Source of the DNA: Eledone cirrhosa
Lineage: Eukaryota
Assembly (NCBI GenBank): GCA_964016885.1
Contig: OZ024741.1
Span: 142,724,001-142,788,000, forward strand
Direction of reading: 5' to 3'
DNA length: 64,000 nt
In this document: in pieces, positions 20,101-35,671 of the stretch
How positions within the stretch are numbered: position 1 is the stretch's first letter
Layout: each line of letters opens with the position of its first letter
Translations under genes and position numbers: made by a program
Notes under the pieces: model-generated
What the model was told of the DNA's origin: nothing
Database searches by the model: none
What the model saw: the letters and a program-made list of their open reading frames with translations, nothing else

Positions 20101-23100
20101 AAGGCTATTGTATTCCAAGTACTCACTAAACAGTTTGTAAAGAGGAGATACTGTGGTGTACCTGCTCGTCAGTTTGGGTATTGTTGACCATAGGCAAATG
20201 GCAGTGAATGTGATGGTGTTGACCATAGGTGAATGGAAGTGTATGTGATGGTGTTGACCATAAAGGAATGGAAGTGTAAGTGATTGTGTTGGTTTTGACC
20301 ATAGGTCAATGGTAGTGTATGTGATGGCAGTACATGTGTTGGTGTTGACTAAAGATCAATGGTAGCATATGTAACGATGTTGGTGTTGACAATAGGTCAA
20401 TGGTGGTGTTGACTTGGGTGAATGACAAAGACATTACTTACTGTGGAGATATTGTTCTGAATAGTGTGCTCAAGAAGACTTGTATGAAGGAATTCTGCTT
20501 TGATAAGAAAGTCAAAGTCGACCAGTTTTTCTGTGCTGCTGATGCCTTCTGGCAACATGAAACAAGAGAAAGCAACAAAGACATTAATAACACATCATTT
20601 ACTAACAACTTAACTCACTATTGCTATATACATTTTATAATAAACCAACCTCCATAAACATATAAACACACACACATATATATATATATATATATTAATA
20701 CAAAGCACACACACCAAAATAGTATGCAATGTTGATTCTCTCACTGTGCTTACTATATTGTGATGTGATGTTGACTGACGAATAAACTACAAAGAAATTG
20801 AAACTTTTTAGCAAAGAGTTTTTCAAGCCTCTCTTCTAGGGGTTATCACAACCAACTGTTGTTCATCATCATCCATTTTACATCTGCTTTCCATACAGCC
20901 ATGAATTAGGCAGCTTGTTACAGCCTCAGTCAGTTCTTGCTTTCTTAGATGAGTCAAGGTAGAGCATGTTTCACTCATATATTCCATTTTGGATTTCTAC
21001 AACTAGATTCCCATAGCATTAAACATTTTTCAGTATACTGAATAAGTTTTATTGTGGCTCGGGCATTAGAGAGGTTATCACGTCCTCAATATAACTAAGC
21101 AGTTTTTTTCTATTTTACATAGTCACAAATTTCACAGTAAAATGTCACATCTCACATGGTAAAGTCTTAGACATAATATACTAAGATGTATTGAATCAAT
21201 CAAGTCAGAATATCTGTATAGTAATTAATGACACAGTTTATATCTCACAGAGGTCAACACAATAAGCAACAGTTAAGTATTTCAGGAGGGAGTGGAGAAA
21301 GAATTTAACTGATTTCTTCTTCCCCACTCCAAATTGTGTGTTCTTGTGTTTATGTTAGAAATCAATATTATCCGTACATCTCTAATATATAATGAATTAG
21401 TTGGAGACACACTTCAACAACTCTTGCAGTTGTCAGGGTGGTATAAACGATGAGATGGACAGTTGAAAACATGGATTAGTACCACCAAACTAGACCTTGT
21501 ATTTGACATCTGGCCCTCTAATATACGGTGCTTAAAATATGGATTAGTACCACCAAATTGGACCTTGAATTGGCATCTGGCTCTCAAATATATGGGGTTT
21601 AATATTGGAATTGTGACTGGTTGACAATCGCCCTGCAGCATAATTGTGCTCACCAAACATATTTGGCTTCTGTTCACAATGCTGTGGATTCACTGGCTAG
21701 AGGTGGCTGGACTCACCTCAGGTGAACACTGACACATCTACAATTAAGTCTAATGTATAAATGAAGTTAGATTTCTTCCAAAGTTTAAAGAAAAAAAATA
21801 GTAGAATGATAGAATACCTTTAAGCAATCCATTGACAAGACTGCTTAATTCTTGAACTGTGGTCTTACTGGGGACAGAAAATGGAGCATCAGGAACTGAA
21901 AATCTGCAATAAGAGAAAAACACATATTAGATATATAAAAAAAAAACGTTCACCTAAGCATTGGGAAAATTTGAAATGTGTGTCCCAACACATATGACCA
22001 TAATAATAGGTGATCACTCTAAATAATGAGAAAATTGGGTAAAATACCCCAGGAGCTCAATTGCTCTCAGGTGCCTCTGTCCACTCTTTTCTCAATTATT
22101 ATCAGTCATTTACATTGTGATGCACACATTTTAAATTTTATATTAATGTAGTTTGAGATGAACTATATTTGAAAATAATACAAGATAGATGTAGCTGGAT
22201 TGCTTTTAACCACTGGCCTCCTTGATCAAGGCTCAGCTGGGTTAAACAACAATATCATAATCTTATGATATTGTTGTTTAACCCATAATATCATAAGATT
22301 ATGATATTACAGGCTATTATCCCATTTTTAGAGATGGAAGATTTTTGGTTAAATCTTATTTTAGGTTGCAAAGTGAAAGTAACCCATATTAGGATGTGAG
22401 GATGAGGATGCTATCTACCTATCTTGAAGGCACAGGAATGGCAGGTGCTTGTGAGCTCTAAGGATGACAGCTGCTTGTACTTCATTCAAGCTTGAATTGG
22501 ATGCTAATTCAGGTATCTCTGGCTTTTATGGAATAAATGATATTACATCTTCATCTGCATTCTGAAAGGGTTAGGGGTAGGGTTTCCGTTTTCCAGGAAA
22601 AGGTTGATTGCAAACATCCTTGAAGTCAGATTAGTTGATAGTACACGAAAAAAAAAAAAACGACGAAAAATAATAATTTCCCACCAACTGCAAGGGGTGT
22701 GTGGGTTTGCGAAACTCCGTTGGTCTTTCCGTCCCCCTTTTCTACAAAGCTAGTCGTTTTGGGGGGGGGGGTCATATTCGTTGATAACACGCAAAAACAA
22801 GAAATCGCAGAGAAAATTCCGAGGTGGGTAATGACTAAAAATAACCAGGATTAAATTACATTAAATTATTTAATTGATTTACAAACGTTTCTATCAATAC
22901 AATAAGAAAATACATTTCCTCTGAATTGATTTCTTCAGAATCTATTAAACAACATAAATAACATAATTATTTATCAACCACATGTCCGAACATCTCCATT
23001 CATTATATATAATATGTATTATTTATTTATGTTCATACACGAAACAAAAGCGCTACCTAAGGATTCAGGGCCCAATATTGACCATATCTCCAGAATTTAT

Positions 23101-23555
23101 ATAAATATATAATTTTCGAAGACAGAGTGTTAGAAGTGTAAAAAAAAGGAGGTATGTCAGTATAATTTGTCGACTGAACCCTTAAGTAAATTGCAAGTAG
23201 TTGTTTAGCACGAGACCAGCCAACTCTGACGCTAAACATCTTTTCTTTCTTTGTTCGATCATAGTATATCTTTTATTTATAAGTCGATATTGAGCGAGAG
23301 ATGGCGTGTTGAAGCGACAACACAGAATGCCACTTCGTTTAGCGATCTGGAATGAGTGAAATATACCGGCACATATGTAATGTACGAGAAAAATACTTGA
23401 GATAATTGAAACAAACAAAACAATGTAGGAAAATGCTAGATATATAGCCAGAGTTTATTTTAGCATGAAAAGGAAAGTGTTAACAAAAATATCTATACTC
23501 ACTGAGATTGTTTTGTGAAAAGCCTCACTAGCACGTGCGACCCGGTATTAGACAT
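3038..23555 (-). CDS. WDR12: Ribosome biogenesis protein WDR12/Ytm1 (NLE domain + WD40 repeats); whole gene, 12 coding exons, 1296 nt, 431 aa
   Basis: All 11 introns are GT-AG with consistent phase. The spliced protein shows WDR12 hallmarks: [25 protein letters not shown]...[52 protein letters not shown]. Confidence 0.96.
3758..4835 (-). mobile_element. RTE-type LINE 3' part with (GAT)n tail
   Basis: ORF 4071..4955 has [20 protein letters not shown] and GRPKMTW, plus a PHD-like C-x2-C...HKRC segment. Confidence 0.9.
5467..5585. repeat. Imperfect ~58-bp-arm palindrome (fold-back/MITE-like)
   Basis: ...atcttctgaagctcag-ttt-ctgagtttcagaagat...; lies between (TA)n tracts. Confidence 0.8.
5775..5907 (-). 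CDS. WDR12: WDR12 exon 11 ([14 protein letters not shown]...[14 protein letters not shown])
   Basis: TTTTTAG acceptor, GTGAGT donor; WD40 repeat. Confidence 0.95.
6190..8290 (-). mobile_element. Two adjacent decayed RTE-type LINE copies
   Basis: [34 protein letters not shown] and RLRWYGHV; (GAT)n tail near 6797. Confidence 0.88.
9074..9179 (-). CDS. WDR12: WDR12 exon 10 ([35 protein letters not shown])
   Basis: TTTGCAG acceptor, GTTTGT donor; DRHIRLWD motif. Confidence 0.94.
9819..9959 (-). CDS. WDR12: WDR12 exon 9 ([18 protein letters not shown]...[13 protein letters not shown])
   Basis: TTAG acceptor, GTATTT donor; WD40 repeat. Confidence 0.94.
9965..10430 (-). mobile_element. Tandem pair of tRNA-derived SINEs (family also near 27140-27520, 37330-37910, 52780-52970 and 63430-63690)
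   Basis: Family consensus has A box TGGCAGTATCGG, B box GAGTTCAAATCC, core GCCTTTCATCC..GGGGTCGATAAAATAAAGTACC (Nin/Deu-domain-like) and an (ATT)n tail. Confidence 0.8.
10445..11950 (-). mobile_element. Decayed RTE-type LINE
   Basis: [13 protein letters not shown] and [10 protein letters not shown]-like frames, with frameshifts. Confidence 0.85.
12357..12448 (-). CDS. WDR12: WDR12 exon 8 (acidic/basic loop [21 protein letters not shown]...LR)
   Basis: CTCCAG acceptor, GTAAGT donor; phase fits. An acidic stretch followed by a basic NLS-like cluster, as in other WDR12 proteins. Confidence 0.88.
13466..13511 (-). CDS. WDR12: WDR12 exon 7 ([15 protein letters not shown]), 46 nt
   Basis: TTTTGCAG acceptor, GTTAGT donor; matches CSGSWDKMLKIWST. 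Confidence 0.94.
14641..14801 (-). CDS. WDR12: WDR12 exon 6 ([17 protein letters not shown]...[14 protein letters not shown])
   Basis: CACAG acceptor, GTAAGT donor; WD40 repeat matching CRGHxxSVD of WDR12. Confidence 0.93.
14900..15322 (+). repeat. ~46-47-bp minisatellite, ~9 units
   Basis: Unit TACAGCTCCCACATCTGGGATGGTAGTACTGCCATACTCAATGGGAA. Confidence 0.9.
15351..15553. mobile_element. piggyBac-type MITE (other copies at 16172-16367 and 53364-53580)
   Basis: Consensus TTAA|CCCTTTAGCATTTA...TAAATGTTAAAGGG|TTAA across three ~200-bp copies. Confidence 0.75.
16461..16576 (-). CDS. WDR12: WDR12 exon 5 ([17 protein letters not shown]...[14 protein letters not shown])
   Basis: TTCAG acceptor, GTATGT donor; WD40 repeat; overlaps ORF 16360..16572. 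Confidence 0.95.
17683..17789 (-). CDS. WDR12: WDR12 exon 4 ([35 protein letters not shown])
   Basis: TTTTACAG acceptor, GTAAGT donor; HDDWVS motif. Confidence 0.95.
17848..19191 (+). mobile_element. Decayed Hsmar2-like (irritans subfamily) mariner
   Basis: [54 protein letters not shown] and [12 protein letters not shown]; degenerate TIRs; two small insertions. Confidence 0.88.
20178..20420 (+). repeat. ~35-bp degenerate minisatellite next to WDR12 exon 3
   Basis: Unit GGTGTTGACCATAGGTGAATGGAAGTGTATGTGAT. Confidence 0.8.
20442..20548 (-). CDS. WDR12: WDR12 exon 3 ([35 protein letters not shown])
   Basis: CCAG acceptor, GTAAGT donor; FDFLI motif. Confidence 0.94.
21818..21903 (-). CDS. WDR12: WDR12 exon 2 ([28 protein letters not shown])
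   Basis: TTGCAG acceptor, GTATTC donor; NLE-domain similarity. Confidence 0.93.
22869..22949 (-). ncRNA. Minimal type I hammerhead-ribozyme-like motif
   Basis: Minus strand reads TTTAATAGATT-CTGAAGA-AATCAAT...ATTGATA-GAAAC-GTTT-GTA-AATCAATTAAA. Both core motifs are present, stem I pairs 10/11 bp, stem II forms, and stem III is 2 bp. Confidence 0.6.
23503..23555 (-). CDS. WDR12: WDR12 exon 1 ([17 protein letters not shown])
   Basis: ATG at 23555; GTGAGT donor; phase 2 joins exon 2. VRLFT resembles the QxRF(Y/F)T N-terminus of WDR12. Confidence 0.85.
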
Positions 23556-23588
23556 TTTCGAAATTTGAAAGTGGAAAAAAGATGTGTG

Positions 23589-23597
23589 ACTTCCGGT
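23589..23597 (-). promoter_or_regulatory. ETS/GABP consensus site (ACCGGAAGT) at the WDR12 promoter
   Basis: Perfect ETS consensus 34 bp upstream of the ATG in a CpG-retaining region; typical of housekeeping promoters. Confidence 0.55.
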
Positions 23598-24169
23598 AAA
23601 TAAACGGTGAAATATTGATAATTACCGGATTCATAATACATACTAGATGTTATCACTAAGTATTGTATTTATTTCTAGGTAGTCTTTTTAAAGCTCCGCG
23701 CAATAAATACGTCAGTGACTTGGCTATTGTTTATTTATTCAATCTAGTATGCCATGACAGACTAGGGAAGTATCTAGTACCCTTACAGTTAAGAACAAAA
23801 ACAAGATAAAGATTTTTAAAAAAGGAGGGGAAAGCAAAAGAAGATTGTTAGTTATGCGGATTGTGTCTTCTTTCATTTCTATCATTTAAGAATTCTATTT
23901 ACCTACGCTAGCAAATGTACAAACTTGTTGTTGCTGTTTAGGCAGAGGTCAGCTTTGTCCAGACAGACAATCGAAGGCATTCCATCCTTATTTTTGAGAC
24001 ACCGTGTTTTTAGAATTACATTATCTAATGTGTCACCATCTTTTTAGGATGATAGGTTGTAACTCAAGGAAAAAATAGCTACTATTTCTAACAGGACGAA
24101 CGACGTTAGTTTGTACAATCCTGTACAAATCAACTGAAATAATACTCCGTATTAGATACATATATATTC

Positions 24170-35343: not shown

Positions 35344-35664
35344 TAGATATACTGCTATATATATTTCGGTGACAGCCATCATTGGCTGTGACTTCTTCAG
35401 ACAGTCCGAGTTGGTGTGGGAAAGACATGTTGTTGAAGTGTGTTTTACTCCGTCAATACATCGATATGTCCAGCTCCTGGTTGTGTTGTTATTTCTCTGA
35501 GGAACTAGAAACAACACAACCAGGAGCTGGACATATCGATGTATTGACGGAGTAAAACACACTTCAACAACATGTGTACCTGTCTTTCCCACACCAATTC
35601 GGACTGTTTGAAGAGGTCACAGCCAATGATGGCTGTCACCGAAATATATATAGCAGTATATCTA
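35344..35664. repeat. Long inverted repeat (~147-bp arms, ~20-bp spacer)
   Basis: Near-perfect reverse complementarity; the ORF track shows the same peptide on both strands. Confidence 0.93.
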
Positions 35665-35671
35665 TAATTTA

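What the first reader, a model, noticed from the sequence alone, without database searches (positions are those of the whole stretch)
22869..22949. Hammerhead-ribozyme fold on the sense strand of WDR12 intron 1
Seen: the minus strand carries the catalytic core CUGAAGA...GAAAC, a GUA cleavage triplet (predicted cut between 22880 and 22879), an 11-bp stem I with one mismatch, a long stem II (ATCAAT/ATTGAT plus an inner AGGAAA/TTTTCT helix) and a 2-bp stem III. Established: minimal type I hammerheads of this shape occur in Penelope-like elements and retrozymes, and often cleave as dimers. Inference: because it lies in the WDR12 pre-mRNA ~550 nt after the exon 1 donor, it could cleave the nascent transcript of a ribosome-biogenesis gene, or it may mark an unrecognised retrozyme/Penelope relic. 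Caveats: the 10.1-11.1 pair is A-A and the stem III loop (GUUU) is not palindromic, so it may be weak or dead.
Basis: partly seen in the sequence, partly recalled or inferred. Interest (0 to 1): 0.75.

Follow-up and report, generated by a model that had tools for sequence, protein, structure and literature searches.

The report
Decayed Penelope hammerhead in WDR12 intron
The self-cutting-RNA motif in the first intron of WDR12 is part of one copy of an old, dispersed jumping repeat, likely of the Penelope type; this lone copy is predicted to misfold, so it likely does not cut the gene's RNA.

Summary
The motif is real: every described element is at the stated place, on the sense strand of WDR12 intron 1 (21904-23502, spliced contig). 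Rfam does not detect it. It is not unique. It lies in a 172-bp, 5'-truncated copy (23001-22830) of a repeat with roughly 220-380 ribozyme-bearing copies. The family shows Penelope-like hallmarks: two fixed 3' ends at microsatellites, scattered 5' ends, and 32 of 105 insertions two-armed. No autonomous partner or tandem array was found. Subfamilies covary at the stem II base (G-C, A-U, A·A), so the master elements kept a hammerhead; A·A is a subfamily trait. This copy has three destabilising changes; a new hairpin is predicted to trap the catalytic core (stem II probability 0.13-0.32, against at least 0.9 in 32 of 41 core-intact copies). A second species shares the insertion, no better conserved than the flanking intron. 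No dimer partner lies in the window. Verdict: an ordinary, probably inactive Penelope-type relic; regulation of WDR12 is unsupported. The scan noted other Penelope-hammerhead families in this genome, not this one.

The parts
22830..23001 (-). 5'-truncated copy of a non-autonomous Penelope-like repeat, ending at the family's short 3' end (no tail)
   Evidence: Homology to other copies starts at 23001 and ends at 22830; 6 differences from the family majority over 172 nt
22869..22949 (-). Minimal type I hammerhead motif with a 16-17 bp stem II and a 2-bp stem III
   Evidence: Sequence; descriptor scan; family pair counts
22932..22938 (-). Core C3-A9 (CUGAAGA), intact
   Evidence: matches the family majority
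22892..22931 (-). 10.1 (A, 22931), stem II, and 11.1 (A, 22892). Carries the private A>U at 22924 and a G-C to G·U change at 22902
22880..22891 (-). GAAA core, stem III with loop (C>U at 22883, a CpG transition), and GUA triplet; predicted cut after 22880
22998..23010 (-). (AT)n plus 7 nt that read as the reverse complement of the family's short 3' end; possibly a minute inverted arm, possibly target site or chance
   Evidence: ambiguous because no short+short pair was seen among 32 two-armed insertions
21904..23502 (-). WDR12 intron 1 (1599 nt, GT..AG), host of the insertion
   Evidence: Spliced contig in run X4; exon homology
23503..23555 (-). Coding part of WDR12 exon 1 (ATG at 23555)
   Evidence: Sequence; donor confirmed by the joint; the start codon is inferred

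Best explanation
The motif is the hammerhead part of one truncated copy of a dispersed repeat, likely a non-autonomous Penelope-like element, which likely entered WDR12 intron 1 long ago and is predicted to be inactive now. Shown: the copy belongs to a family of a few hundred; family units are about 600 nt, or about 760 nt with a 3' tail; they end at two fixed sites next to microsatellites and are often two-armed. Inferred mechanism: a Penelope-type reverse transcriptase with GIY-YIG endonuclease, supplied in trans, nicked AT-rich DNA and primed reverse transcription at one of two internal sites of the element RNA, stopping early here to leave 172 bp. In the master elements the ribozyme likely worked, weakly and as a dimer, through the near-palindromic loop III. 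After insertion the copy likely drifted neutrally: three changes together favour a hairpin that pairs the CUGA core with stem II's 5' strand. With no second copy nearby and about 980 nt to exon 2, it would not compete with splicing.
For: Family: 49 matches from 40 scored of 664 candidates; 64 exact 24-mer matches, 0 for the reversed control; about 220-380 copies after correcting for decay. Ends: of 147 aligned pieces, 47 end at consensus 590-619 and 43 at 750-759, while 5' ends scatter. A microsatellite follows 46 of 49 short ends and 35 of 46 tailed ends, against 24% background. 32 of 105 insertion clusters are two-armed 5'-to-5': 15 short+tail, 1 tail+tail, 0 short+short, 16 with an unclassified end. 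This matches Craig 2021 Fig. 2 and Frangieh 2024. Fold kept in masters: 85.7% of cells paired, 12 of 29 pairs with changes on both sides, 0 of 500 shuffles. Of 11 loci picked only for G at 10.1, position 11.1 is U in 5, C in 1, G in 1, lost in 4, A in 0, against A in 40 of the 62 copies with A at 10.1. Neutral decay after insertion: core 4.1% (24/581), other motif positions 5.3% (143/2693), 3' flank 5.8% (85/1469); core intact in 41 of 69. This copy: stem II probability 0.13-0.32, core-trapping pairs 0.67-0.87; loop III dimer duplex -1.9 against -4.6 kcal/mol for the family form. Organism B: one 1874-nt contig holds both intron flanks and the element, with 16 other letters and 10 gap letters over 182 nt; flanks show 24/326, 20/125 and 26/316.
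Against: No autonomous partner was found, so Penelope membership rests on architecture alone. The tail (~160 nt) is longer than the 30-40 bp in print. All core nucleotides are intact. The copy is 4.1% from a subfamily majority built without it, against a mean of 7.7% (third lowest of 16; Poisson P about 0.05, uncorrected, and the copy was noticed because it looks intact). The misfold is marginal: putting the family base at any one of three positions restores stem II to 0.92 or more, and nearest-neighbour folding ignores core tertiary contacts. The overall covariation score was not above shuffles (62 of 500). An axolotl hammerhead with a U·U at the stem II base still cleaves 22% per hour as a monomer.
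Confidence: 0.85

Rival explanations
1. Same origin, but the copy keeps slow residual activity (as a monomer, or by pairing with another family RNA) and cuts a small, inconsequential fraction of WDR12 pre-mRNA or excised intron.
For: Intact core and GUA. The modelled active junction costs only about 3 kcal/mol. Precedent for activity with a mismatch at the stem II base. Copies are on both strands genome-wide (31 forward, 33 reverse), so partners in trans may be transcribed.
Against: The Schistosoma minimal hammerhead showed no monomer cleavage and low dimer cleavage. The loop III duplex is weakened and the core is predicted trapped.
Confidence: 0.1
2. The host exapted the copy as an intronic ribozyme that tunes WDR12 mRNA output, like the amniote intronic hammerheads or the CPEB3 ribozyme.
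For: Sense orientation in intron 1; shared with a second species; somewhat less diverged than siblings; core intact.
Against: No excess conservation in organism B, which has 10 gap letters in the element and does not span the 121-nt ribozyme-centred stretch at 88% likeness (inferred from absence). All three changes inside the motif destabilise it and none compensates. At the mammalian rate of 3.5-4.1 kb/min (rate unknown for this animal) polymerase reaches exon 2 in about 15 s.
Confidence: 0.03
3. The family is a retrozyme (tandem, circular-RNA monomer) or a chance hairpin in an unrelated short repeat, not a Penelope-type terminus.
For: No ORF and no partner found; no Rfam hit.
Against: No tandem arrays or circular permutations among 105 clusters; unit longer than the 150-450 bp retrozyme monomers; covariation at 10.1-11.1; 0 of 200 shuffles give the motif.
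Confidence: 0.02

Closest known systems
[quoted passage not shown]
   Same: Type I topology, conserved core, long helix II, very short helix III with a self-complementary loop, no loop1-loop2 motif, subfamilies with compensatory changes, mostly found as single dispersed truncated copies.
   Different: Helix II is 16-17 bp (7-8 bp there) and helix I 10-11 bp (4-5 bp there). 10.1-11.1 is G-C in only a minority and A·A in most copies. No extra base between 9 and 10.1 in the G-C and A-U subfamilies.
Penelope-like element insertion structure (Craig et al. 2021, PMC8557442; Frangieh et al. 2024, PMC11167929; passages read)
   Same: 5' truncation, inverted partial copy at the 5' end, optional tail on one arm, microsatellite or AT-rich targets, hammerhead just upstream of the 3' ends.
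   Different: Tail about 160 nt rather than 30-40 bp. No RT-GIY-YIG ORF and no partial tandem found for this family.
Metazoan non-LTR retrozymes (PMC7229834, passages and section 15 read; bioRxiv 10.64898/2026.07.22.740005, passages read)
   Same: Non-coding, low GC, type I hammerhead, likely mobilised by Penelope enzymes. Axolotl HHR_Amex2 also has a mismatch at the base of helix II.
   Different: No tandem monomers. Unit 600-760 nt. Minimal rather than canonical hammerhead.
Domesticated intronic ribozymes: amniote RECK/CTCL/DTNB hammerheads (PMC6155905, passages read) and the CPEB3 HDV-like ribozyme (PMC10919898, passages read)
   Same: Ribozyme motif on the sense strand of a host intron, derived from or resembling mobile-element ribozymes (for the hammerheads).
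   Different: Those are conserved across distant species, and CPEB3 cleaves with a 2-3 min half-life about 10 kb before the next exon. This one is one of hundreds of copies, shows no excess conservation, and is under 1 kb from exon 2.

Membership tests
Type I hammerhead ribozyme | Conserved core C3 U4 G5 A6 N7 G8 A9, G12 A13 A14, A15.1-U16.1 and H17 | tested here: met
Type I hammerhead ribozyme | Three helices around the core, supported by covariation in the family | tested here: met
   (12 of 29 pairs change on both sides, 0/500 shuffles; overall score 62/500). Stems I and III are mostly invariant and so say little.
Type I hammerhead ribozyme | This copy folds into the three-way junction | tested here: inconclusive
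   Predicted misfold, stem II probability 0.13-0.32; prediction only, and marginal
Type I hammerhead ribozyme | Purine-pyrimidine pair at 10.1-11.1 | tested here: not met
   A·A in this copy and in 40 of 69 family copies; paired in 26 of 69
Type I hammerhead ribozyme | Match to an Rfam hammerhead model | tested here: not met
Type I hammerhead ribozyme | Site-specific self-cleavage | not testable with these tools
   Needs an in vitro assay; no raw RNA reads were offered
Penelope-like element (non-autonomous derivative) | 5'-truncated dispersed copies with fixed 3' ends and an optional tail | tested here: met
   The tail set is enriched by the query and its end coincides with the end of my reference, but microsatellites follow it.
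Penelope-like element (non-autonomous derivative) | Inverted 5'-truncated copy adjacent to the 5' end | tested here: met
   32 of 105 clusters
Penelope-like element (non-autonomous derivative) | Insertion bias for microsatellites | tested here: met
   46/49 and 35/46 against 24% background; the window copy itself lacks a 3' microsatellite
Penelope-like element (non-autonomous derivative) | Hammerhead in the terminal repeat region | tested here: met
Penelope-like element (non-autonomous derivative) | Identifiable autonomous partner that shares the 3' end | tested here: inconclusive
   None in 50 GIY-YIG loci out of 10597 candidates; small sample
Penelope-like element (autonomous) | ORF with RT and GIY-YIG endonuclease | tested here: not met
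   No ORF in the unit; none within 5 kb upstream of 20 of the 28 longest copies; hits in 4 of 110 loci (3 places) are unrelated neighbours
Metazoan non-LTR retrozyme | Head-to-tail tandem monomers of 150-450 bp | tested here: not met
   no such array at 21900-23700
Metazoan non-LTR retrozyme | Circular RNA | not testable with these tools
   No raw RNA reads offered
Domesticated intronic ribozyme | Conserved across species above the flanking intron | tested here: not met
   One other species only

The most novel reading that the evidence does not exclude
The WDR12 copy is a Penelope hammerhead in early domestication: it has kept a perfect core since before a species split, and its three private changes turn it into a two-state switch (core-trapping hairpin against active junction, about 3 kcal/mol apart) that gates cleavage of a ribosome-biogenesis pre-mRNA, by itself or through pairing with family RNAs in trans.
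Probability: 0.03. Interest if true: 0.7.

Novelty: new member of a known kind. Interest (0 to 1): 0.15.

Why it matters
As found, it matters little: minimal hammerheads in dispersed Penelope fragments are known to be abundant in invertebrate genomes, and some will lie in introns in the sense direction. The family has modest value as a natural series. Its subfamilies carry G-C, A-U or A·A at the base of stem II, and the A·A forms are the most common in my sample, which fits the in vitro report that hammerhead cleavage is not needed for Penelope insertion (PMC11167929). Its tail is unusually long (about 160 nt) and sits on one arm of two-armed insertions. If the copy did regulate WDR12, it would be an invertebrate case of ribozyme domestication with its source family still in the genome.

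Tried and rejected
Rfam scans: no hammerhead. A family covariance model scores the copy 97 bits, but by construction, so it is not counted as support. Search for an autonomous partner: none among 30 GIY-YIG loci or 20 long-ORF Penelope loci, none upstream of 20 long copies; the three neighbouring Penelope fragments belong to other families, one nested inside a family copy. An antisense reading of the unit looked protein-like by eye, but all frames are full of stops and it matched no Penelope protein except through low-complexity sequence: rejected. The hammerhead after the L143 ORF was first taken as that element's own; it lies in a separate unit past a microsatellite, so it is not used. No RNA holder was listed for the stretch; X4 gave a spliced contig but contigs cannot show ends, so cleavage in vivo is untested. 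The second laying could not read the orthologous ribozyme of organism B letter by letter. An alternative fold I expected (stem I 5' arm pairing with the start of stem II) has probability 0.00. The tree of 73 copies is mostly unresolved (3 of 70 branches starred) and unrooted, so the order G-C, A-U, A·A is not established. Rows dropped: 7 of 76 ribozyme-spanning copies with more than 6 gaps; 4 segmentally duplicated copies and 1 repeat locus. Lunse et al. 2017 on dimer cleavage could not be read and is known here only through the review PMC6765202 (passages). Searches for 'hammerhead ribozyme'+'cephalopod' and 'WDR12'+'ribozyme' listed no paper on this locus or family (listings only). The Octopus vulgaris repeat paper has no mention of ribozymes in its main text; its supplements and Repbase-type libraries, which I did not see, may already hold this family.

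Full report
OBSERVATION. A strict type I descriptor finds this one site in the window and none in 200 of 200 shuffles. Rfam finds no hammerhead in the window or at E<=10 in 22400-23500. The host gene is WDR12: one exon matches the human protein (E 5.8e-9), exon 2 matches the NLE domain, and a contig of run X4 is spliced from 23503 to 21903. Intron 1 is therefore 21904-23502; the motif begins 553 nt after the donor and the predicted cut lies 976 nt before exon 2.

IT IS ONE COPY OF A REPEAT. Searching the 3.0-Gb own genome with 22820-23000 gave 49 matches from 40 scored of 664 candidates, the 40 best at 86-93% identity apart from the window itself. Homology is confined to 23001-22830. A 24-mer across the right half of the ribozyme matches exactly 64 times, its reverse control 0 times. 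Only 4 of 21, 6 of 36 and 7 of 24 independently collected copies keep that 24-mer, which gives about 220-380 ribozyme-bearing copies (the samples favour well-preserved copies, so this is likely low). Longer copies define a non-coding unit of about 600 nt, or about 760 nt with a 3' tail.

THE FAMILY HAS PENELOPE-TYPE ENDS. Of 147 aligned pieces, 47 end at the short 3' end and 43 at the tail end, while 5' ends are scattered (the tail group is enriched by the query). A microsatellite follows 46 of 49 short ends and 35 of 46 tail ends, against 24% for random 33-mers of the same loci. 32 of 105 insertion clusters have two arms joined 5'-to-5': 15 pair a short with a tailed arm, 1 has two tails, none has two short arms, and 16 have an unclassified end; 3 clusters are 3'-to-3' and 1 was flagged as tandem, a local duplication. 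Craig et al. 2021 describe 5' truncation, an inverted partial copy at the 5' end, a tail often at one end only, and microsatellite bias (passages). Frangieh et al. 2024 tie the tail to two internal start sites of reverse transcription and report that hammerhead mutants insert normally in vitro (passages). The tail here (~160 nt) is longer than the 30-40 bp they give. Earlier scan notes report two-armed hammerhead repeats of other families in this genome (unchecked, and read before the count); none covers this sequence.

NO AUTONOMOUS PARTNER FOUND. The genome is rich in RT plus GIY-YIG elements, but none of 50 such loci carries this family's sequence. Penelope protein hits in 4 of 110 family loci (3 places) are unrelated neighbours or nested insertions. 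Extending 20 of the 28 longest copies by 7 kb found no such ORF within 5 kb. The family is filed as Penelope-like on architecture, not on a protein.

THE MASTERS KEPT A HAMMERHEAD; THE COPIES DRIFT. In 69 aligned copies, 85.7% of cells pair and 12 of 29 pairs change on both sides (0 of 500 shuffles for each), although the overall covariation score is not exceptional (62 of 500) and shared descent inflates such counts. Position 10.1-11.1 is A·A in 40, A-U in 20, G-C in 4, G·U in 2 and other in 3. As an independent check, 11 loci chosen only for G at 10.1 have U (5), C (1), G (1) or a deletion (4, one duplicated region) at 11.1, never A; U is what CpG decay of C would give (inference). A second stem II pair varies as C-G 14, U-A 4, A-U 2. 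The commonest loop III region is self-complementary with two central mismatches, as expected for dimer-type minimal hammerheads (Cervera and de la Pena 2014, parts 1-2 read). After insertion there is no clear sign of selection: mismatch rates are 4.1% in the core, 5.3% elsewhere in the motif and 5.8% in the 3' flank, and 28 of 69 copies have a broken core. Subfamilies are 6.2-8.2% from their own majority.

THIS COPY. It differs from the family majority at 6 of 172 positions. Inside the ribozyme: 22924 A>U (2 of 92 rows) breaks a stem II pair and creates a 6-7 bp hairpin with the core; 22902 turns G-C into G·U; 22883 is a CpG transition in loop III; 22919 is a common subfamily variant. The predicted probability of stem II is 0.32 at 37 C and 0.13 at 15 C, the core is trapped with probability 0.67-0.87, and the fold is no better than shuffles (z -0.37; five relatives -1.5 to -4.9). 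32 of 41 core-intact copies form stem II at 0.9 or more. The intermolecular loop III duplex falls from -4.6 to -1.9 kcal/mol. Against this, any single change back restores stem II, so the prediction is marginal. The window holds no second family copy, so a dimer in cis is not available.

AGE AND CONSERVATION. One 1874-nt contig of organism B (run X5) runs colinearly through the intron flanks and the element, so the insertion predates the split of the two species. The element differs by 16 letters and 10 gap letters over 182 nt; the flanks by 24 over 326, 20 over 125 and 26 over 316. At 88% likeness that contig is not one of the two records that span 22850-22970, which suggests that the differences include the ribozyme (inferred from absence). 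The one hint of constraint is that the window copy is 4.1% from a subfamily majority built without it, against a mean of 7.7% (third lowest of 16, Poisson P about 0.05). That value is uncorrected and subject to ascertainment.

MECHANISM AND VERDICT. Shown: repeat membership, end structure, covariation among subfamilies, presence in a second species. Inferred: mobilisation in trans by a Penelope enzyme, weak dimer-type cleavage in the masters, neutral decay and misfolding of this copy. Published minimal Penelope hammerheads gave no monomer cleavage and low dimer cleavage, while an axolotl hammerhead with a stem II base mismatch gave 22% in an hour (section read). Either is far slower than the roughly 15 s a polymerase would need to reach exon 2 at mammalian rates. 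It works like, and by architecture likely is, the terminal hammerhead of a non-autonomous Penelope-like element. It is a new member of a known kind, with interest 0.15; host regulation is given 3%.

Noticed in passing
window 35351-35400 (-), with an inverted partner near 35520-35665 (+): A second hammerhead-like motif with a palindromic AT loop III, from a different and apparently younger repeat family: 1647 first-look candidates, many near-equal copies, several in inverted pairs.
   Followed up: partly
window 23017-23096: Another high-copy repeat abuts the element's 5' side; contigs switch strand within it, suggesting a self-complementary end.
   Followed up: no
window 59317-59822 (+): Degenerate small-subunit rRNA fragment (111.6 bits), probably an rDNA pseudogene.
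   Followed up: no
window 49916-49957 (-): Loose hammerhead-core pattern hit; the surrounding sequence resembles by eye the LINE-type coding remnants seen in other loci, probably chance.
   Followed up: partly
L143:5990-6301 (G000:C5, about 100722190-100722500): A hammerhead of similar build (long bulged stem II, U·U at 10.1-11.1) in a unit whose first ~35 nt recur about 470 nt later, just past a Penelope element's microsatellite-rich 3' region; possibly a tandem retrozyme-like unit.
   Followed up: partly
L162:3727-6343: A fragment of an unrelated Penelope ORF is nested inside a family copy, right after the ribozyme.
   Followed up: partly
L036, L047, L048 upstream of the unit start: One subfamily shares a further 100-300 nt of microsatellite-like sequence upstream, so the unit may be the 3' part of a longer element with a repeat-rich untranslated region.
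   Followed up: partly
G000, genome-wide: 10597 first-look candidates for GIY-YIG; the top 150 all pass the Pfam cut-off, and those read are Penelope-like ORFs, some with frames of 800-1100 aa.
   Followed up: partly
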